From IMG/VR virus record IMGVR_UViG_2531839586_000020, positions 1 to 7,227 of that record: DNA of 7,227 nucleotides; one strand, 5' to 3'. The notes under the pieces are model-generated. The model did not search any database. It saw only the letters and a list, made by a program, of their open reading frames with translations, and was not told where the DNA came from. Origin of the DNA: a virus. Its lineage: Duplodnaviria; Heunggongvirae; Uroviricota; Caudoviricetes. This document shows positions 1 through 7,227 of the stretch, piece by piece (position 1 is the first letter of the stretch; each line of letters begins with the position of its first letter). The position numbers and the translations under genes are program-made.

Positions 1-492
1 AACTCCGGGACGCTCAACAACGTCACGATTAACGAGAACTGTCGGGTTCTGGGAAAACTGTCCGCGAACCAGATTGAAGGCGATCTCGTTAAAACAGTGG
101 GCAAAGCTTTCCCCCGGGACTCCCGTGCACCGGAGCGGTGGCCATCAGGAACCATTACCGTCAGGGTTTATGACGATCAGCCGTTTGACCGGCAGATTGT
201 TATTCCGGCGGTGGCATTCAGCGGCGCTAAACATGAGAAAGAGCATACTGATATTTACTCCTCATGCCGTCTGATAGTACGGAAAAACGGTGCTGAAATT
301 TATAACCGTACCGCGCTGGATAATACGCTGATTTACAGTGGTGTTATTGATATGCCTGCCGGTCACGGTCACATGACACTGGAGTTTTCGGTGTCAGCAT
401 GGTTGGTAAATGACTGGTATCCCACAGCAAGTATCAGCGATTTGCTGGTTGTGGTGATGAAGAAAGCCACCGCAGGCATCAGTATCAGCTGA
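1..492 (+). CDS. J: Tail tip / host specificity protein J, C-terminal 163 codons (5' end outside window)
   Basis: Frame 1 is open from position 1 to TGA at 490-492. Translation ends ...[89 protein letters not shown], which matches my recollection of the lambda J C-terminal receptor-binding end. The ORF track starts at an internal GTG (97) but the frame is open upstream to the window edge. Confidence 0.9.
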
Positions 493-511
493 ATTTTATA
501 ACCCCAATACG

Positions 512-535
512 GGCGCCAGAAATGGCGCCTTTTTT
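512..535 (+). terminator. Rho-independent terminator downstream of J
   Basis: Perfect hairpin GGCGCC (512-517) / loop AGAAAT / GGCGCC (524-529), followed by a T6 run (530-535). Sits 20 nt after the J stop. Confidence 0.6.
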
Positions 536-559
536 ATTGCAGAAAAGCGAGAGGTAATT

Positions 560-1140
560 ATGCGTAAAGTTTATGCAGCCATTTTGTCCGCAGCCATCTG
601 TCTGGCCGTATCCGGTGCGCCTGCATGGGCGTCTGAGCAGCAGGCCACACTGAGCGCAGGGTATCTTCATGCCCGTACGAACGCTCCCGGCAGCGATAAT
701 CTGAACGGGATTAACGTGAAATACCGTTATGAGTTTACGGACACCTGGGGCTGAACGTCTTCAGTATGCAGGAAGATGAGCAAAAAACGCATTACAGCGA
801 TACCCGCTGGCATGAGATTCCGTCGTAACCGCTGGTTCAGCGTATGGCGGGCCGTCTGTGCGCGTGAATGAATGGTTCAGCGCGTATGCGATGGCGGGTG
901 TGGCTTACAGCCGTGTGTCGACTTTCTCCGGGGATTATCTCGTACTGACAACAAGGGGAAAAGCACGATGTGCTGACCGGAAGTGATGACGGTCGCCACA
1001 GCAACACGTCTCTGGCGTGGGGGGCTGGCGTGCAGTTTAACCCGACCGAATCCGTGGCCATTGATATTGCTTATGAAGGCTCCGGCAGTGGTGACTGGCG
1101 CACTGACGGTTTCATCGTGGGTGTCGGTTATAAATTCTGA
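560..1140 (+). pseudogene. lom: lom (outer membrane protein Lom, Ail/OmpX family moron), frame-disrupted
   Basis: RBS GAGAGG (549-554) then ATG at 560. Frame 2 gives MRKVYAAILSAAICLAVSGAPAWASEQQATLSAGYLHARTNAPGSDNLNGINVKYRYEFTDTWG, then TGA at 752-754. Lom-like peptide then continues in shifting frames: SDTRWHE (frame 1, about 796-816), RRNRWFSV (frame 2, 821-844), VRVNEWFSAYAMAGVAYSRVSTFSGDYL (frame 3, 858-941), and KHDVLTGSDDGRHSNTSLAWGAGVQFNPTESVAIDIAYEGSGSGDWRTDGFIVGVGYKF (frame 1, 961-1137) ending at TGA 1138-1140. Span 581 nt is not a multiple of 3. Identity is confident; the pseudogene call assumes the sequence is accurate. Confidence 0.75.
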
Positions 1141-1167
1141 TTAGCCAGGTAACACAGTGTTATGACA

Positions 1168-1193
1168 GCCCGCCGGTTCAGGCGGGCTTTTTT
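1168..1193 (+). terminator. Rho-independent terminator downstream of lom
   Basis: Hairpin GCCCGCC (1168-1174) / loop GGTTCA / GGCGGGC (1181-1187), followed by a T6 run (1188-1193). Immediately precedes the stf RBS and start. Confidence 0.6.
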
Positions 1194-1775
1194 GTGGGGT
1201 GAATATGGCAGTAAAGATTTCAGGTGTACTGAAAGACGGCACAGGAAAACCGGTACAGAACTGCACAATCCAGCTGAAAGCAAAACGTAACAGCACCACG
1301 GTGGTGGTGAACACGCTGGCCTCAGAAAATCCGGATGAAGCCGGGCGTTACAGCATGGACGTTGAGTACGGCAGTACAGCGTTATTCTGTTGGTGGAAGG
1401 TTCCCGCCGTCACATGCCGGGACCATCACGTGTATGAAGATTCCACCGGTACGCTGAATGATTTTCTCGGTGCCATGACGGAGGATGATGCCGTCCGAGG
1501 CACTGCGCCGTTTGACTGATGGTGGAAGAGTGGCGCGTAACGCGTCCGGGTGGCACAGAACACGGCAGCCGCAAGAAGTCAGCCAGGATGCCGGCACATC
1601 GCCGTGAGGCGGCAACCCATGCGACTGATGCTCAGGCTCAGCACGGCAGCCAGCACTCAGCCGGCAGGCCGCGCGTCGGCTCAGTCAGCTCTTCCAGCGC
1701 AGGAACGGCATCAACAAAGGCTGAAGCATCAAAAGTGCTGCGCTGCAGAGTCCTCAAAAAGCGCGGCAGCTACCA

Positions 1776-4007
1776 GTGCCGTGCGGCGAAAACGTCAGAA
1801 ACGAATGCGGCAGCGTCACAACAATCGCAGCCACTTCTGCATCCCCGCGACCACGAAGCGTCAGAAGCGCCACCTCAGCCCGGGATGCGGCGGCCTCAAA
1901 AGAGGCAGCGAAATCATCAGAAACGAACGCATCATCAAGCGCCAGTAGTGCCGCTTCCTCGGCAACGGCGGCAGGAAATTCCGCGAAGGCGGCAAAAACG
2001 TCCGAGACGAACGCCAGGTCTTCTGAAACGGCAGCGGGACAGAGCGCCTCAGCTGCGGCAGGCTCAAAAACAGCGGCTGCGTCGTCTGCCAGTGCCGCAT
2101 CAACAAGTGCCGGGCAGGCCTCAGCCAGTGCCACCGCTGCCGGAAAGTCGGCAGAAAGTGCCGCATCGTCTGCTTCAACAGCCACAACGAAGGCTGGCGA
2201 AGCCACTGAACAGGCCAGCGCAGCAGCGAGGTCAGCTTCCGCAGCGAAGACATCCGAAACGAACGCGAAAGCGTCGGAAACCCGTGCAGAATCCTCAAAA
2301 ACGGCTGCCGCATCGTCAGCCAGTTCGGCGGCGTCATCGGCATCATCGGCGTCTGCTTCAAAAGATGAGGCGACCATACAGGCGTCAGCAGCGAAGGGCA
2401 GCGCCACGACGGCATCCACGAAGGCGACAGAGGCTGCTGGTAGTGCGACGGCAGCAGCTCAGAGCAAAAGTACGGCGGAATCTGCAGCAACGCGCGCTGA
2501 GACAGCGGCAAAACGGGCAGAGGATATTGCATCCGCCGTGGCGCTTGAGGATGCGAGCACGACGAAAAAGGGGATAGTACAGCTCAGTAGTGCGACTAAC
2601 AGCACGTCTGAAACGCTGGCGGCAACGCCAAAGGCAGTAAAATCAGCCTATGACAATGCAGAGAAACGTCTGCAGAAAGACCAGAACGGCGCTGATATAC
2701 CCGATAAGGGACGCTTCCTGAACAACATTAACGCGGTCAGTAAAACAGACTTTGCTGATAAGCGTGGTATGCGTTATGTGCGGGTTAACGCTCCTGCAGG
2801 TGCAACATCTGGAAAATATTACCCTGTTGTTGTTATGCGTTCTGCTGGCTCAGTAAGCGAACTGGCATCAAGGGTCATTATCACCACGGCAACGCGAACC
2901 GCAGGCGATCCGATGAATAACTGCGAGTTTAACGGATTTGTTATGCCTGGTGGCTGGACTGACAGGGGGCGTTATGCTTATGGAATGTTCTGGCAATATC
3001 AAAACAATGAACGAGCCATCCACTCAATAATGATGAGTAATAAGGGCGATGATTTGCGCTCTGTGTTCTATGTTGATGGCGCTGCTTTCCCTGTTTTTGC
3101 GTTTATCGAAGATGGCCTGTCAATATCCGCACCTGGTGCTGATCTCGTTGTTAATGATACGACCTATAAGTTTGGGGCAACAAATCCGGCGACTGAATGT
3201 ATCGCGGCGGACGTTATCCTTGATTTTAAGAGTGGGCGTGGTTTTTATGAGTCTCATTCGTTAATCGTTAACGATAACTTGTCGTGCAAAAAACTTTTTG
3301 CCACAGACGAAATTGTAGCGCGTGGTGGTAATCAGATTCGAATGATAGGTGGGGAGTATGGGGCATTATGGCGTAATGATGGCGCTAAAACTTACCTGCT
3401 GCTTACCAATCAAGGTGATGTTTATGGTGGCTGGAATACATTAAGACCGTTTGCTATTGATAACGCAACCGGCGAACTGGTTATTGGAACCAAACTGTCC
3501 GCAAGTCTGAACGGTAATGCATTAACAGCAACAAAGCTGCAAACGCCAAGACGGGTTTCTGGTGTTGAGTTTGATGGTTCCAAAGATATTACTTTAACCG
3601 CCGCGCATGTGGCTGCTTTTGCCAGAAGGGCAACGGATACATATGCCGATGCGGATGGTGGCGTTCCCTGGAATGCCGAATCAGGCGCTTATAATGTCAC
3701 CCGCTCTGGCGACAGCTATATTCTGGTTAACTTCTATACCGGAGTCGGAAGTTGCCGGACCTTGCAGATGAAGGCGCATTACAGAAATGGTGGTCTGTTC
3801 TACCGTTCTTCAAGAGACGGTTATGGTTTTGAGGAAGACTGGGCAGAAGTTTATACCTCGAAAAATCTTCCACCAGAAAGCTACCCAGTCGGCGCACCAA
3901 TCCCGTGGCCATCAGATACCGTTCCGTCTGGTTATGCCCTGATGCAGGGGCAGACTTTTACAAATCTGCCTACCCGAAACTTGCAGCCGCTTATCCGTCA
4001 GGCGTGA
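1776..4007 (+). CDS. stf: stf central fragment: longest intact ORF of the disrupted side tail fibre gene (Ala/Ser-rich shaft repeats plus distinct central domain). The ATG at 1776 is probably not a real start
   Basis: 743-codon ORF in frame 3. Contains [24 protein letters not shown]..., [44 protein letters not shown] and ...[21 protein letters not shown], all recalled as Stf-like. The last 16 codons (after about 3960) are out-of-frame read-through. Confidence 0.6.
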
Positions 4008-4585
4008 TCCCTGATATGCGTGGCTGGACGATTAAGGGCAAACCCGCCAGTGGTCGGGCCGTATTGTCTCAGGAACAGGACGGCATTAAATCGCATACCC
4101 ACAGCGCCAGCGCATCCAGTACGGATTTGGGGACGAAAACCACATCGTCGTTTGATTACGGCACTAAATCCACGAATAACACCGGGGCGCATACGCACAG
4201 TCTGAGTGGCTCTACGGGGTCTGCCGGTGTTCATACTCATGGTAATGGTATTCGTTGGCCAGGAGGCGGCGGTTCTGCGTTAGCATTTTATGATGGCGGT
4301 GGGTTCACTTATGTCCAGAATTCACAGTATCAAGTAAGCCCGGAGACTTCTTCCTATAGATCGTATTATCAACGTATTCAGACACAGTCAGCAGGTGCTC
4401 ATACCCACTCGCTGTCTGGTACTGCAGCAAGTTCTGGCGCACATGCACATACTGTAGGTATTGGTGCGCATACGCACTCCGTTGCGATTGGTTCACATGG
4501 ACACACCATCACCGTTAACGCTGCGGGTAACGCGGAAAACACCGTCAAAAACATCGCATTTAACTATATTGTGAGGCTTGCATAA
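3905..4585 (+). CDS. stf: stf C-terminal fragment (His-rich repeat region, receptor-binding / Tfa-dependent tip); the first roughly 18 codons are out-of-frame overlap
   Basis: Frame 2 ORF. From about 3962 it reads [52 protein letters not shown]...GAHTHSLSG...[49 protein letters not shown], matching the recalled lambda Stf C-terminus. Stop TAA at 4583-4585. Confidence 0.6.
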
Positions 4586-5169
4586 TGGCATTCAGAATGA
4601 GTGAACAAGCACGGACCATAAAAATTTATAATCTGCTGGCCGGAACTAATGAATTTATTGGTGAAGGTGACGCATATATTCCGCCTCATACAGGTCTGCC
4701 AGCAAACAGTACCGATATTGCACCACCAGATATTCCGGCAGGCTTCGTGGCTGTTTTCAACAGTGATGAGGCATCGTGGCATCTCGTTGAAGACCATCGG
4801 GGTAAAACGGTTTATGACGTGGCTTCCGGCGACGCGTTATTTATTTCTGAACTTGGCTCGTTACCGGAAAATGTCACCTGGTTATCGCCGGAAGGGGAAT
4901 ATCAGAAGTGGAACGGCACAGCCTGGGTGAAGGATACGGAAGCAGAAAAACTGTTCCGGATCCGGGAGGCGGAAGAAACAAAAAACAGCCTGATGCAGGT
5001 AGCCAGTGAGCATATAGCGCCACTTCAGGATGCTGTAGATCTGGAGATCGCAACGGAGGAAGAAACCTCATTGCTGGAAGCCTGGAAAAAATATCGGGTG
5101 TTGCTGAACCGTGTTAATACAACAACTGCACCTGATATTGAGTGGCCGGAAGAACCAGACACAATGTAA
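4585..5169 (+). CDS. tfa: Tail fibre assembly protein Tfa (194 aa), intact
   Basis: ATG at 4585 overlaps the stf stop (TAATG); RBS GAGG at 4573-4576. Translation [91 protein letters not shown]... is near-identical to recalled lambda Tfa (orf-194) and the same length. Stop TAA at 5167-5169. Confidence 0.92.
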
Positions 5170-5172
5170 GCG

Positions 5173-5219
5173 AAAAAGAAAAACCGCAGACACGACGTAT
5201 GCAGGACGTGCTGCGGTTT
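5173..5219. terminator. GC-rich hairpin between convergent tfa (+) and the minus-strand cassette; candidate bidirectional intrinsic terminator, stronger for the minus strand
   Basis: Stem CCGCAG(A)CACG (5184-5194) pairs with CGTGCTGCGG (5207-5216) around a 12-nt loop. On the minus strand the hairpin is followed by TTTTTCTTTTT (complement of 5173-5183); on the plus strand only TTT follows (5217-5219). Confidence 0.45.
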
Positions 5220-5335
5220 GGCTAGTAAACTTTTGATAGTGCGAGTATTGAATGATTTCCAGCCCATTACTCATTTTACGCTTTTCACGCGCAAGAGAAA
5301 TTGAACTTTATTCCTCTGTCACCACATGACGGGGA

Positions 5336-6094
5336 TTAACATTCTGGATTTTTTATTTCTAAATCAGATAAAGCATTAATTCTTATTTTTTCTAAGGCTT
5401 TATCCATGGCCCCCTTGATTCTGTATCCATAATCATCCGGTTCTTCATATTCCTGTGGGGACGGATTTGTACCAATATTCTCAATTAATTCATTTAAAAT
5501 AACTGTTACTTCTTTATTAAGAAGAACTGCTTTAGTTAACATCATCTCTGTTAATGCTGTGAAGGCTAGGCTAAGTTTCTGTTGTAGCTCTTTATTTTTT
5601 AATTTAAGATCTTCATCGTTTAGTGCTTTATCACGGTCTTCGTGAGCCTGTTGTACTTCATCCCAAAACAGCTTTTCTTGTTCTTGATTAAAATATCCTT
5701 GATAACTATTGGCTACATATGTTGGCATCATGTGAATCTCAATAATTTCAAATTCATTATCAGCCCATTTTTTTATACTAAGTAACTGAGTGTAAATGTA
5801 CTCATACATATCGTACTTTTTTTGCCAGATTTGTTGAGAAATCCACAACTCAGAAGTAATCTTTTTTTCTATATCTTTGATAGTTGTTGTATTTAATGCT
5901 AACTGCTTTCTGAGTATTTCATAGTTAGCGTTGGTAGCAGAAATTTTTGCTTTTTCAGTTATAAAAGAAACAATAAAGTTCACTATGAGAGCTGCAATAA
6001 TAATAGCGAAGCTCAACCCTAAAATCTCTGTGGTTGAGAAATTAGATGACTGTAATGCTTTGATAAGTTCAAAAAACTGTTTTTCTGTGAGCAT
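5336..6094 (-). CDS. Hypothetical single-pass membrane protein (252 aa), AT-rich cargo gene B; function unknown
   Basis: 759-nt ORF in roughly 32% GC DNA (sample counts), where long ORFs are unlikely by chance. ATG at 6094-6092 is preceded on the minus strand by AAGGT about 5 nt upstream. Hydrophobic stretch ILGLSFAIIIAALIVNFIVSFI (residues about 24-45) then a charged, probably helical domain (...EDRDKALNDEDLKLKNKELQQKLSLAF...). No recognisable catalytic motif. Confidence 0.75.
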   Translation of the reverse strand: MLTEKQFFELIKALQSSNFSTTEILGLSFAIIIAALIVNFIVSFITEKAKISATNANYEILRKQLALNTTTIKDIEKKITSELWISQQIWQKKYDMYEYIYTQLLSIKKWADNEFEIIEIHMMPTYVANSYQGYFNQEQEKLFWDEVQQAHEDRDKALNDEDLKLKNKELQQKLSLAFTALTEMMLTKAVLLNKEVTVILNELIENIGTNPSPQEYEEPDDYGYRIKGAMDKALEKIRINALSDLEIKNPEC

Positions 6095-6165
6095 GGTACC
6101 TTACCAAAAATTAAGACTGTTATCTATATAAAAATGTTACCCAAGAGGGATTGTAATGAAATAAC

Positions 6166-6187
6166 AAACCGGCACATTGGCCGGTTT
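6166..6187 (-). terminator. Hairpin directly after the stop of gene A; candidate intrinsic terminator or attenuator between the two cargo genes
   Basis: Perfect 8-bp stem AAACCGGC (6166-6173) / 6-nt loop / GCCGGTTT (6180-6187). On the minus strand it begins 5 nt after the gene A stop and is followed by GTTATTTCATT (U-rich). The stem has only 5 G:C pairs, so strength is uncertain. Confidence 0.4.
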
Positions 6188-6192
6188 GAAGT

Positions 6193-7227
6193 TCAAGGGG
6201 GTGAGATTGTAGAGGCGTTACCTTGTTCTATCACACCAGACCTAATCTTATAACTACCAAGGATGTTGACCGTTTTATTATTTTTCATCGCGTCAAAAAT
6301 TAAGCCTATTTCATCAGGATCATTGATAAAACTGGTATCAACATAGATCGGGAATGAATCATCACCTGTTGGCTCATGGCAGCTTAACGTTAGCTTATCG
6401 GCTGAGCGTTTTATACTATCAATGACAACTTCCAATGTTTGCTGCTCTGACTTAGCCTTTTCAATTGGGTTCTTGATGATTTCTTGAACCTGACCTTGCG
6501 AAAGCTCAATATTGCTGGCCCCGCGGATCGTCACTTTGTCTGCATCAGATGCACCTTTAAGAACTCCAGTGTATGCCTTAGCTGTGTGCTCTTGGATACC
6601 TTCGGCGCGCTCTATCGTATCAATACCTTCATGTGCTTTTATTGCAGACAGCATACCATCGCGTAGAATTGTCATCCGCTCGGATTCTGCTCGCTGTTTT
6701 GCTTCTTCCAGTTGTAACTCAATAGTTTTGGTTTCGACTTGTGTCTGATGATCTAAGTAGGACGTACCGACCCATGCGCCGCCTAAAACTAAGACAGCAA
6801 ACAGGAAACACATTGTTTTCTGTCTTGGGCTCATACCTTGCGTTACCTTCTCAAATGCGTTACCAAAGGAATCAATAAGTTCTTTAACTGAGGTGATAAT
6901 TTCTGTGCAGCCAGGATTGATAGTAAAAACCAACTCTGCAGCTTCTCGATCCTCAGCAGTGAGCTTCTGTAAGTTAGAGGTTTTGTACTTGATTAGAGTA
7001 AAAACCTTGTACATCTCAGTTTGAAATTCACAGATACCCTGTGCCAAACTTGCAGGCAGAGTACCATTATACTTATCTTCATCACCAAAAAATTTGAAAT
7101 CAATACTTTCTAAGAAGTTTAACTTCAAATTTTCAATGTGGATTTCTTCGCCTGAAATAACTCGTCCGAAAATATTTTCTATATCATCAATATCATTGAT
7201 TTCATAGGCCTGAATTGCATCTTCCAT
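6193..7227 (-). CDS. Hypothetical membrane-anchored protein (at least 344 aa), AT-rich cargo gene A; function unknown
   Basis: 1035-nt ORF on the minus strand, stop TGA at 6195-6193. The ATG is the last three bases of the window (7227-7225), so the RBS and promoter are not visible and the true start could be upstream. Acidic N-terminal region, one hydrophobic segment MCFLFAVLVLGGAWVGTSY (residues about 139-157, coded about 6757-6813) with basic residues on its N-side (SPRQKT), then a roughly 185-aa C-terminal domain ending ISPP. No Walker, nuclease or other motif recognised. Confidence 0.7.
   Translation of the reverse strand: MEDAIQAYEINDIDDIENIFGRVISGEEIHIENLKLNFLESIDFKFFGDEDKYNGTLPASLAQGICEFQTEMYKVFTLIKYKTSNLQKLTAEDREAAELVFTINPGCTEIITSVKELIDSFGNAFEKVTQGMSPRQKTMCFLFAVLVLGGAWVGTSYLDHQTQVETKTIELQLEEAKQRAESERMTILRDGMLSAIKAHEGIDTIERAEGIQEHTAKAYTGVLKGASDADKVTIRGASNIELSQGQVQEIIKNPIEKAKSEQQTLEVVIDSIKRSADKLTLSCHEPTGDDSFPIYVDTSFINDPDEIGLIFDAMKNNKTVNILGSYKIRSGVIEQGNASTISPP

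What the first reader, a model, noticed from the sequence alone, without database searches (positions are those of the whole stretch)
6193..7227. Gene A: bitopic protein with an acidic N-terminal domain, a central TM helix and a 185-aa C-terminal domain; start codon at the window edge
The protein has about 138 N-terminal residues, one hydrophobic segment (residues about 139-157) and about 185 C-terminal residues. Basic residues immediately N-terminal of the helix (RQK) suggest an N-in, C-out signal-anchor topology, which would place the C-terminal domain in the periplasm. This resembles envelope-acting sensors or effectors more than cytoplasmic enzymes. No catalytic motif is evident. Because the ATG is the final triplet of the window, the upstream regulatory region and any partner genes are unseen.
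Basis: partly seen in the sequence, partly recalled or inferred. Interest (0 to 1): 0.6.

Follow-up and report, generated by a model that had tools for sequence, protein, structure and literature searches.

The report
Prophage membrane protein replacing lambda RexAB
Gene A is a real, intact gene for a membrane-anchored protein from a large, unstudied prophage family; in related phages it sits exactly where phage lambda keeps its rexAB anti-phage genes, so it is most likely an uncharacterised way for a resident prophage to protect its host against other phages.

Summary
Window 6193-7227 (-) is an intact 344-aa ORF (RefSeq WP_001555707.1, "hypothetical"). It has an acidic N-domain, one central hydrophobic segment (residues 138-158) and a 186-aa C-terminal region. 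Upstream sequence from complete genomes allows at most 6 more codons. The gene lies at the right end of a lambdoid prophage beside prfC.

No Pfam, NCBIfam, PADLOC or PDB-sequence match exists; only phrog_6191 (unknown function) matches. The family is nevertheless large, with 795 50%-identity clusters.

AlphaFold2 gives an N-domain with no known fold, a hydrophobic helix, a helical hairpin and a C-terminal OB-fold.

In 7 of 14 contexts examined, homologs sit immediately downstream of the prophage repressor. In phage mEp332 (lambda immunity) the gene replaces rexA-rexB between cI and the Timm terminator, and homology to lambda breaks at the cI stop codon.

Gene B next door is an independent cargo gene, not a partner.

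Two new leads emerged: a strictly conserved Gly-Ser/Cys in the N-domain, and an invariant Met132 preceded by a conserved Shine-Dalgarno-like motif, which suggests a second, shorter product.

Most likely this is a lysogen-expressed phage-exclusion protein acting at the inner membrane. Function and topology are untested.

The parts
6193..7227 (-). Gene A coding sequence, 344 aa (RefSeq WP_001555707.1; UTI89 orthologue UTI89_C5141); member of phrog_6191
   Evidence: ORF list and sequence; RefSeq annotation in complete genomes; PHROG match E 2e-92 over the full length; homologs
6829..7227 (-). N-terminal domain (residues 1-133): alpha/beta, acidic (net -14), best conserved part of the wide family, no known fold
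6904..6912 (-). Gly106-Cys107-Thr108: family motif G-[S/C]-[T/S] in the turn between strands 101-103 and 109-113; candidate nucleophile
   Evidence: In 128 aligned family members position 107 is Ser 73% / Cys 27% with nothing else; G106 is 98%; secondary structure
6845..6852 (-). Internal Shine-Dalgarno-like GAGAAGGT, 11 nt upstream of the Met132 codon
   Evidence: An SD-like 4-mer at this spacing is present in 11-12 of 13 homologs with DNA, against a 10% background; the Lys codon is AAG in 10 of 10 cases, against 29% expected
6832..6834 (-). Met132 codon: candidate internal translation start giving a 213-aa product (MSPRQKTM + hydrophobic segment + C-terminal region)
   Evidence: Met is 96% invariant, otherwise Val/Leu (plus one Asn); the Val variant uses GTG with AGGA 11 nt upstream
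6754..6816 (-). Hydrophobic segment, residues 138-158 (TMCFLFAVLVLGGAWVGTSYL): probable transmembrane signal-anchor, or the h-region of a signal peptide in the short product
   Evidence: KD 1.82; conserved position in the family; Hessa sum +0.9 kcal/mol; AF2 helix 134-148, pLDDT about 88-90
6553..6723 (-). Helical hairpin (residues 169-225), preceded by a low-confidence linker at 155-167
   Evidence: AF2 model
6196..6453 (-). C-terminal OB-fold (residues 259-344; b1-b2-b3-helix-b4-b5), acidic (net -5)
6155..6188 (-). Intrinsic-terminator-like hairpin (CAAACCGGCCAATGTGCCGGTTTG + T-rich tail) 5 nt after the gene A stop codon
   Evidence: Terminator scan; coordinates
5336..6094 (-). Gene B, 252 aa: N-terminal TM segment (residues 24-46) plus a helical C-terminal region. 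An independent neighbouring cargo gene, not a partner of gene A
   Evidence: ORF; KD 2.79; its homologs occur alone at prophage ends and never beside an A-family gene; A homologs never have B beside them
5181..5279 (+). Copy 1 of a ~100-bp direct repeat (~90% identity) that brackets the B-A cassette; copy 2 lies about 345 bp beyond the window end, next to dinI
   Evidence: Repeat finder on L001; blastn; the same sequence follows the tail-fibre genes in HK97, mEp460 and Stx phages

Best explanation
Gene A is a stand-alone prophage accessory ('moron') gene. Its product is anchored in the cytoplasmic membrane and most likely protects the lysogen against superinfecting phages. It would be a single-gene functional substitute for the lambda RexAB exclusion system.

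Proposed working (inferred): the acidic, conserved N-domain stays in the cytoplasm. The hydrophobic segment spans the inner membrane (N-in, C-out). A flexible linker, a helical hairpin and an OB-fold are displayed in the periplasm. There the more variable C-terminal region would recognise a component of an incoming phage or of its entry route. The outcome would be either a block of genome entry, or a signal passed to the cytoplasmic N-domain that aborts the infection.

In most relatives the gene is co-transcribed with the repressor from the maintenance promoter, so it is made in every lysogen. The copy in this window has moved to another cargo site at the prophage end and has its own terminator.

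A second, shorter product (Met132 to the end, i.e. hydrophobic segment plus C-terminal region) is probably made from an internal ribosome-binding site. It may modulate the long form.

Shown: the gene is real; the architecture; the OB-fold prediction; the family size; the prophage contexts; the exact swap with rexAB in mEp332; the independence from gene B. Inferred: membrane insertion, topology, expression in the lysogen, anti-phage function, the two products.
For: (1) Position. mEp332 belongs to the lambda immunity group (PMC3442831). Its deposited immunity-region record annotates pRM - cI - mEp33204 (43% identical to gene A, and noted there as similar to UTI89_C5141) - Timm terminator - oL/pL - N. 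Lambda and mEp332 DNA are near-identical through cI, and homology ends at the cI stop codon. In lambda that interval holds rexA-rexB.

(2) The same slot, directly after a CI-type or HTH repressor on the same strand, is used in PhiR12 phages, Citrobacter, Pantoea, Dickeya, Klebsiella (13-bp gap) and a Rac-like prophage. Five of these loci (Dickeya, Citrobacter, Pantoea, the Rac-like prophage and Klebsiella) were scanned: none has a terminator-like or promoter-like site between repressor and gene, and three have a strong terminator just after the gene.

(3) The cI-N interval is a recognised mosaic hotspot that holds RexAB and BstA and is highly transcribed in lysogens (PMC8585504).

(4) The other contexts are also prophage cargo sites: the prophage end next to dinI/attR here, a Mu-like prophage end beside the tail-fibre invertase, next to an Abi_2 gene in Proteus, and the genome end of Pasteurella phage Pmp14.

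(5) Architecture: a conserved hydrophobic segment, an OB-fold, and conservation of the whole protein.

(6) Precedents exist for inner-membrane prophage exclusion proteins (P22 SieA, PMC10883804) and for membrane-anchored OB-fold Abi proteins (AbiP, Pdp(Sau), PMC10127798).

(7) Promoter-trap activity upstream of UTI89_C5141 was reported in UTI89 (PMC5404293). This is weak, because many genes of that chromosomal region are listed.
Against: There is no experimental evidence for any phenotype. I found no paper that tests this family.

Guilt by position is not proof: cargo slots also carry virulence, fitness and regulatory genes.

There is no similarity to any known defence protein. PADLOC gives nothing for 63 diverse members. 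hhalign to RexA and RexB gives probabilities of 0.7% and 0.2%.

The hydrophobic segment is marginal and the charge bias is weak, so membrane insertion and topology are unproven.

The window's own copy is not in the repressor operon, and no consensus promoter was found upstream of it.

One distant metagenomic member lies among housekeeping genes with no visible phage context.

The most conserved part is the cytoplasmic N-domain, which a pure entry blocker would not need.
Confidence: 0.5

Rival explanations
1. Rex-like abortive infection. The protein would be a membrane-embedded sensor-effector: on a phage cue it oligomerises through the Gly-rich hydrophobic helix and the OB-fold, collapses membrane potential or halts macromolecular synthesis, and kills or arrests the infected cell. 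The short internal-start product would act as a built-in modulator or self-immunity factor, as Esc does for P22 SieB. This is a sub-variant of the best explanation (post-entry action rather than an entry block).
For: All characterised occupants of the same slot that I could document act after entry (RexAB and BstA; PMC8585504). The conserved N-domain with a strict Gly-Ser/Cys looks like an effector or sensor. There is evidence for an internal start, with the sieB/Esc precedent (PMC12197685). Membrane-anchored Abi precedents exist in AbiP and Pdp(Sau), the latter causing membrane depolarisation. Weak compositional profile hits go to TM-plus-stalk proteins.
Against: There is only one marginally hydrophobic segment per chain, and no homology to RexA or RexB. 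Both soluble parts are acidic and the OB-fold is not basic, unlike Pdp(Sau). No toxicity or phenotype data exist.
Confidence: 0.22
2. A lysogenic-conversion factor unrelated to phage defence. The envelope protein would change host physiology, for example envelope stress tolerance, colonisation, serum or bile resistance, or interbacterial competition.
For: Prophage-end cargo next to lom, dinI and tail-fibre genes often affects host fitness or virulence (established knowledge). The cassette is found in uropathogenic and mastitis isolates. Promoter activity was reported inside bladder cells. Periplasmic OB-fold proteins (YgiW/BOF, SilF) serve stress and metal functions.
Against: The family is spread across plant, insect, fish and animal-associated Enterobacterales, Pasteurella and beyond, which argues against a niche-specific virulence role. 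The recurrent repressor-operon position is the classical site for exclusion genes. In Proteus the neighbour is an Abi_2 gene.
Confidence: 0.17
3. A prophage maintenance or induction regulator. A transmembrane sensor co-expressed with CI would couple an envelope or periplasmic signal to the lysis-lysogeny switch. One route would be sequestering or processing a cytoplasmic factor through the N-domain, by analogy with membrane-anchored anti-sigma factors.
For: It shares an operon with the repressor in many phages. The layout of cytoplasmic domain, single TM and periplasmic domain is that of one-pass signal transducers such as anti-sigma factors (established knowledge). A conserved Gly-Ser/Cys could mark a processing site.
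Against: The gene also occurs far from any repressor, at prophage ends, in prophages with unrelated switches (CI-type, Rac-type; also in a Mu-like prophage), and apparently outside prophages. A regulator tied to one switch would not move so freely. Lambda-immunity phages work with rexAB in its place.
Confidence: 0.08
4. Not a membrane protein. The hydrophobic helix would be a buried core or oligomerisation helix of a soluble cytoplasmic protein, and the OB-fold would bind nucleic acid in the cytoplasm.
Against: The hydrophobic stretch of about 21 uncharged residues is conserved in position while its sequence varies freely (20.7% identity). It is followed by a low-confidence linker (pLDDT 41-47). 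The OB-fold is acidic in 70% of members. The profile's only PDB sequence hits are TM-anchor-plus-stalk proteins.
Confidence: 0.08

Closest known systems
Lambda RexA-RexB exclusion (abortive infection) system
   Same: Homologs of gene A occupy exactly the rexAB interval, downstream of cI, inside the pRM-Timm operon and upstream of oL/pL. In mEp332 homology to lambda breaks at the cI stop codon. Both are membrane-associated and prophage-encoded.
   Different: There is no sequence or profile similarity (hhalign 0.7% and 0.2%; no Pfam hit). This is one gene with one hydrophobic segment, not a cytoplasmic sensor plus a 4-TM protein. It has an OB-fold. The copy in this window is not in the repressor operon.
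P22 SieB / Esc (one exclusion gene, two translation products)
   Same: Both are prophage exclusion genes from the immunity region. Here there is evidence for an in-frame internal start (Met132 with a conserved SD-like motif), which parallels the distinct peptides encoded by sieB (PMC12197685).
   Different: There is no detectable similarity (no SieB Pfam or PHROG annotation hit; tblastn hits in only 10 phage records, none of them P22 or lambda). The internal start here is only inferred, and no antisense RNA is known.
Inner-membrane superinfection-exclusion proteins (P22 SieA; HK97 gp15)
   Same: Both are prophage-expressed, inner-membrane single proteins that need no partner. SieA blocks DNA injection at the inner membrane (PMC10883804). 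HK97 gp15 is a tail-region moron with a bitopic topology (my own knowledge, not checked here).
   Different: They are unrelated in sequence. Gene A carries a 133-aa conserved cytoplasmic domain and a C-terminal OB-fold, which these proteins lack.
Membrane-anchored OB-fold abortive-infection proteins (lactococcal AbiP, staphylococcal prophage Pdp(Sau))
   Same: All are single-gene, (pro)phage-related, with one membrane anchor plus an OB-fold. Pdp(Sau) causes abortive infection with membrane depolarisation (PMC10127798).
   Different: In those proteins the TM is N-terminal and the OB-containing domain is cytoplasmic and basic. Here the hydrophobic segment is central, the OB-fold is acidic (net -5) and probably periplasmic, and there is an extra N-domain.
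BstA (prophage Abi downstream of cI)
   Same: It has the same conserved genetic architecture, lying downstream of the prophage repressor and presumably sharing its promoter. It is also a single gene (PMC8585504).
   Different: BstA is a soluble DNA-associated protein. There is no PADLOC or Pfam match between the two.

Membership tests
phrog_6191 (PHROGs, unknown function) | Full-length match to the family HMM | tested here: met
   E 2.2e-92; residues 4-342 match profile positions 4-332 of 338
Lambda RexA/RexB | Sequence or profile homology to RexA or RexB | tested here: not met
   hhalign of the 63-sequence family profile vs lambda RexA gives probability 0.7%, and vs RexB 0.2%; no Pfam hit
Lambda RexA/RexB | Located between cI and oL/pL and co-transcribed with cI from pRM | tested here: inconclusive
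   Met by position for homologs in mEp332, PhiR12, Citrobacter, Pantoea, Dickeya, Klebsiella and a Rac-like prophage. Not met for the copy in this window, which lies at the prophage end. Transcription was not measured.
Lambda RexA/RexB | Two components: cytoplasmic sensor plus polytopic (4-TM) membrane protein | tested here: not met
   Single ORF with one hydrophobic segment. The adjacent gene B is an independent family.
Lambda RexA/RexB | Exclusion phenotype (e.g. T4 rII) with loss of membrane potential | not testable with these tools
   Needs infection assays
Inner-membrane superinfection exclusion proteins (SieA, HK97 gp15 type) | Inner-membrane localisation | tested here: inconclusive
   KD 1.82 over 19 aa and family-wide conservation of the segment, but the Hessa sum is +0.9 kcal/mol and the family median +2.3. 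No dedicated predictor or experiment was available.
Inner-membrane superinfection exclusion proteins (SieA, HK97 gp15 type) | Sequence relationship to a characterised Sie protein | tested here: not met
   tblastn against 50,697 phage records gives 10 records, all unannotated homologs or mis-annotated as GspM. No PHROG with an exclusion annotation. No Pfam SieB or other hit.
Inner-membrane superinfection exclusion proteins (SieA, HK97 gp15 type) | Blocks phage DNA entry | not testable with these tools
   Needs K+ efflux or DNA injection assays
AbiP / Pdp(Sau) membrane-anchored OB-fold Abi proteins | N-terminal TM anchor followed by a cytoplasmic, positively charged OB-fold domain | tested here: not met
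OB-fold | Five-stranded barrel with b1-b2-b3-helix-b4-b5 order | tested here: met
T2SS protein GspM (label used in GenBank records PV340541 and PV340549-PV340554 (five PhiR12 records)) | Match to the T2SSM family; short cytoplasmic tail, TM, periplasmic ferredoxin-like domain | tested here: not met
   No Pfam T2SSM hit at E <= 1 for gene A, nor at E <= 0.01 for 63 family members. The N-domain is 133 aa and the C-terminus is an OB-fold.
Known anti-phage defence systems (PADLOC-DB 2.0.0) | Match to any model of a known or candidate defence protein | tested here: not met
   Only chance-level hits (E >= 0.019) for gene A. No family is shared by more than 1 of 63 members. The library dates from 2023, so later systems are not covered.

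The most novel reading that the evidence does not exclude
One reading frame would encode a two-protein, envelope-spanning phage sensor that has replaced the two-gene RexAB system. The long form couples a periplasmic OB-fold, which detects an incoming phage's injection machinery or DNA in the periplasm, through one transmembrane helix to a cytoplasmic domain of new fold. That domain's strictly conserved Gly-Ser/Cys would be a catalytic or self-cleaving nucleophile. The short form, started at Met132, would be a secreted or anchored copy of the sensor that tunes or neutralises the long form (self-immunity). This would be an 'outside-in' anti-phage signalling mechanism with no characterised counterpart.
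Probability: 0.12. Interest if true: 0.85.

Novelty: new variant of a known kind. Interest (0 to 1): 0.6.

Why it matters
The interval between the repressor gene and pL in lambdoid phages is where RexAB was found, the oldest known abortive-infection system and one whose mechanism is still unresolved. BstA was found there later.

This work shows that a large family (795 clusters at 50% identity) without any annotation recurrently fills that same slot, with a clean swap against rexAB in a lambda-immunity phage. That makes it a concrete, cheap-to-test candidate for a new single-gene prophage defence.

The isolated phages that carry it already exist (mEp332 and the PhiR12 phages), as do E. coli K-12 lysogens.

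The protein combines a domain of unknown fold, a marginal membrane segment and a probably periplasmic OB-fold. If it senses phage from outside the cytoplasm, or makes two products from one frame, it would broaden the known ways in which prophages guard their hosts.

If it turns out not to act on phages, it is still a widespread lysogen-expressed envelope protein whose role in host physiology is unknown.

Tried and rejected
Library searches that found nothing:
- Pfam, NCBIfam and PADLOC scans of genes A and B and of 63 diverse family members gave only chance-level hits.
- A phmmer search and a family-profile search against PDB sequences gave nothing beyond compositional hits to TM-plus-stalk proteins such as ATP synthase b and MotB.
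- Foldseek against viral predicted structures gave two full-length matches, both uncharacterised (Leptospira phage LE1, an uncultured myovirus). The remaining hits were local OB-fold matches.
- The AFDB50 fold library was not available.
- Rfam found nothing in the cassette and its flanks.

Searches for related loci:
- The search for related loci with the broad alignment failed for lack of a conserved stretch. With the close alignment it returned only four loci.
- The second word-indexed search with the broad alignment added little, because of the candidate cap.

Literature:
- Searches for the protein accession, the UTI89 locus tag, mEp332, PhiR12 and GspM-labelled prophage proteins found no functional study.
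- The DefensePredictor supplements do not list the accessions.
- The Degnan et al. 2007 paper on lambda-immunity wild phages is not held.

Hypotheses rejected:
- Gene B as a partner of gene A: each family occurs without the other everywhere else.
- A longer ORF with an earlier start.
- The GenBank label 'T2SS GspM containing protein'.
- Membership of RexA/RexB.

No consensus sigma-70 promoter was found in the 450 bp upstream of the window's copy.
Full report
**What is in the window.** The 7,227-bp window is the right end of a lambdoid prophage.
- On the plus strand are lom, a side-tail-fibre gene (stf) and a tail-fibre assembly gene (4585-5169).
- On the minus strand, in DNA of much lower G+C (31-44% vs 50-62%), are gene B (5336-6094, 252 aa) and gene A (6193-7227, 344 aa).
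- Megablast places the B-A segment in 28 of 5,426 complete E. coli genomes at 98-99.5% identity, among them strains 1303, UTI89 and NU14.
- In these genomes the order is tail fibre - tfa - B - A - about 450 bp non-coding - a DinI-like gene - prfC, i.e. the prophage/chromosome junction.

**Check of the observation.** It is confirmed.
- RefSeq calls the same 344-aa protein (WP_001555707.1, hypothetical).
- In the full locus the frame can be extended by only six codons before a stop. The annotated ATG has an AAGGA Shine-Dalgarno 6 nt upstream.
- A terminator-like hairpin follows the stop codon (window 6165-6188, T-tail to 6155).
- The single hydrophobic segment is residues 138-158 (Kyte-Doolittle 1.82; next best window 1.01).
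- The N-domain is acidic (net -14), and R134/K136 precede the segment.

**Family.**
- No Pfam, NCBIfam, PADLOC or PDB-sequence match exists. PHROGs matches phrog_6191 (unknown function) end to end, E 2e-92.
- The word-indexed search found 48 clusters, all from Enterobacterales and all 'hypothetical'.
- The exhaustive profile search found 795 representatives at E <= 1e-3 (325 at <= 1e-10), nearly all 310-360 aa and full length.
- Sixty-three diverse members share no Pfam or PADLOC family.
- A hydrophobic segment at the same position is a family trait (median position 131; 71% with KD >= 1.6). It is marginal on the Hessa scale (+0.9 kcal/mol here, family median +2.3), and the flanking K+R bias is weak (2.45 vs 2.30).

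**Structure.** AlphaFold2 with 27 sequences gave mean pLDDT 81 and pTM 0.68. The elements are:
- an alpha/beta N-domain (1-127);
- a helix at 134-148 and a low-confidence linker at 155-167;
- a helical hairpin at 169-225 and a small beta unit;
- a C-terminal barrel with the OB-fold order b1-b2-b3-helix-b4-b5 (259-342).

**Context is the main evidence for function.** Homologs travel without gene B and sit in prophage cargo sites.
- In seven independent contexts the gene lies immediately downstream of the prophage repressor on the same strand: Dickeya, Citrobacter, Pantoea, a Rac-like prophage, Klebsiella with a 13-bp gap, the ECOR12-derived PhiR12 phages and phage mEp332.
- The mEp332 record, deposited as an 'immunity region', annotates pRM, cI, the homolog (noted as similar to UTI89_C5141), the Timm terminator, then oL/pL and N.
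- mEp332 has lambda immunity (PMC3442831). Its DNA is near-identical to lambda through cI, and homology breaks at the cI stop codon. In lambda that interval contains rexA and rexB. The gene is thus a clean replacement for rexAB.
- In five further loci, pattern scans find no terminator or promoter between repressor and gene. In three of them a strong terminator follows the gene.
- The BstA paper describes this cI-N interval as a mosaic hotspot that houses RexAB and BstA and is highly transcribed in lysogens (PMC8585504).
- The other contexts are also accessory sites: a Mu-like prophage end beside the Gin-type invertase, next to an Abi_2 gene in Proteus, the end of Pasteurella phage Pmp14, and after a tail gene in another genome. 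One metagenomic member shows no phage context.

**Gene B is not a partner.** It has its own family. Its members occur alone at prophage ends near DinI, SRAP, UmuDC-like and RnlAB genes. It has no tblastn match in the phage collection. The B-A cassette is bracketed by a ~100-bp direct repeat (window 5181-5279; the second copy lies beyond the window next to dinI). The same sequence follows the tail-fibre genes of HK97, mEp460 and Stx phages. Part of the region upstream of gene A resembles a 'tmRNA pseudogene/attP' of phage LLS. The cassette therefore sits in a mosaic joint of old prophage ends.

**Two leads from the family alignment.**
- First, position 107 is Ser (73%) or Cys (27%) in all 128 sequences, preceded by Gly106 (98%) and followed by Thr/Ser (91%). 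It lies in the turn between two strands. A strict Ser/Cys alternation is what nucleophiles show. Whether it marks a hydrolase or a self-cleavage site (Gly|Ser/Cys, as in several autoprocessing proteins; from memory, untested) is open. No conserved His exists.
- Second, Met132, six residues before the hydrophobic core, is 96% invariant; the substitutes are Val and Leu, plus one Asn.
  - In 11-12 of 13 homologs for which I hold DNA, an SD-like AAGG/GAGGT lies 10-11 nt upstream, against a background of 10% for random codons.
  - The Lys codon involved is AAG in 10 of 10 cases, against 29% AAG for Lys-before-G in these genes, while neighbouring synonymous sites vary.
  - mEp332 reaches the same motif with different residues, using the rare AGG codon.
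  - A Val variant uses GTG with AGGA 11 nt upstream.
  - This suggests an internal start giving a 213-aa product that begins MSPRQKTM followed by the hydrophobic segment, i.e. a short-tailed signal-anchor or even a cleavable signal peptide.
  - An alternative reading is an SD-like translational pause before a membrane segment.
  - The precedent of one exclusion gene giving distinct peptides is P22 sieB/Esc (PMC12197685).

**Interpretation.** The best-supported reading (confidence about 0.5) is a lysogen-expressed phage-exclusion protein acting at the inner membrane, functionally replacing RexAB. The N-domain would be cytoplasmic and the hairpin plus OB-fold periplasmic. I cannot decide between a block of genome entry, as for P22 SieA (PMC10883804), and a Rex-like abortive mechanism.
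- For abortive infection: the conserved N-domain and the slot's known occupants.
- For an entry block: the envelope location and the variable C-terminal region.
- Rivals are a non-defence lysogenic-conversion factor, a regulator of the prophage switch, and a soluble protein whose hydrophobic helix is buried.
- It is not a member of RexA/RexB (hhalign 0.7% and 0.2%), of any PADLOC family, of GspM (the GenBank label on the PhiR12 and mEp332 genome records), or of the AbiP/Pdp(Sau) layout (PMC10127798).

**Novelty and limits.** I found no functional study of the family. It is a new variant of a known kind, namely prophage exclusion genes of the cI-N hotspot. Its architecture is unprecedented and its function is unproven. 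Everything about expression, membrane insertion, topology, the two products and anti-phage activity is inference, and the experiments listed above would settle each point.

Noticed in passing
window 454-4210 (lom and stf): Relative to the intact genes of E. coli Ec-U11, this stretch has 51 gap openings in 3.8 kb at 97% identity. They break lom into 3 ORFs and stf into 3 frames (1199-1519, 1776-4007, 3905-4585). In contrast, 4400-7227 (tfa, B, A) has no gaps at 99.4% identity. This is either assembly error in DNA repeated among several prophages, or decay of the tail genes with the cargo genes preserved. Unresolved.
   Followed up: partly
window 5181-5279 and L001 11372-11470 (outside the window): A ~100-bp direct repeat (~88-90% identity) brackets the B-A cassette. 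The same sequence follows the tail-fibre genes in HK97, mEp460, HK106 and Stx phages and is present in about half of complete E. coli genomes. It is probably a recombination joint for swapping cargo.
   Followed up: partly
L001 11213-11378 (about 190-350 bp beyond the window end, upstream of gene A): This stretch is 81% identical to a feature annotated 'tmRNA pseudogene / attP' in Escherichia phage LLS. It looks like a relic of an ssrA-type attachment site. In Yersinia ruckeri the gene A homolog sits at the smpB/ssrA-proximal end of a Mu-like prophage.
   Followed up: no
window 5336-6094 (-), gene B: A 252-aa protein with a strong N-terminal TM segment (residues 24-46, KD 2.79) and a long helical, acidic C-terminal region. 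It matches no family in any library. Homologs occur in Klebsiella, Enterobacter, Proteus, Citrobacter and Aeromonas, alone at prophage ends beside DinI, SRAP, UmuDC-like and RnlAB genes. It is a second uncharacterised cargo gene worth testing for phage exclusion.
   Followed up: partly
GenBank PV340541 and PV340549-PV340554 (five PhiR12 records; L029 3953-4978): Homologs of gene A are labelled 'T2SS GspM containing protein' in these phage genome records. My Pfam scans of gene A and of 63 family members give no T2SSM match, so the label looks unsupported.
   Followed up: yes
window 1750-2500: The N-terminal part of stf is a high-G+C (62%), strongly A-over-T-skewed stretch encoding Ala/Ser/Thr-rich repeats (…AAKTSETNA…). 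Long overlapping ORFs appear in several frames there, as a by-product of the repeat composition.
   Followed up: no
L003-L006 (Proteus mirabilis), about 2.4-3.4 kb upstream of the gene A homolog: An Abi_2 (PF07751) abortive-infection gene lies in the same accessory stretch as the gene A homolog, with PAAR-motif and integrase-fragment genes nearby. This suggests a small defence/cargo island.
   Followed up: no
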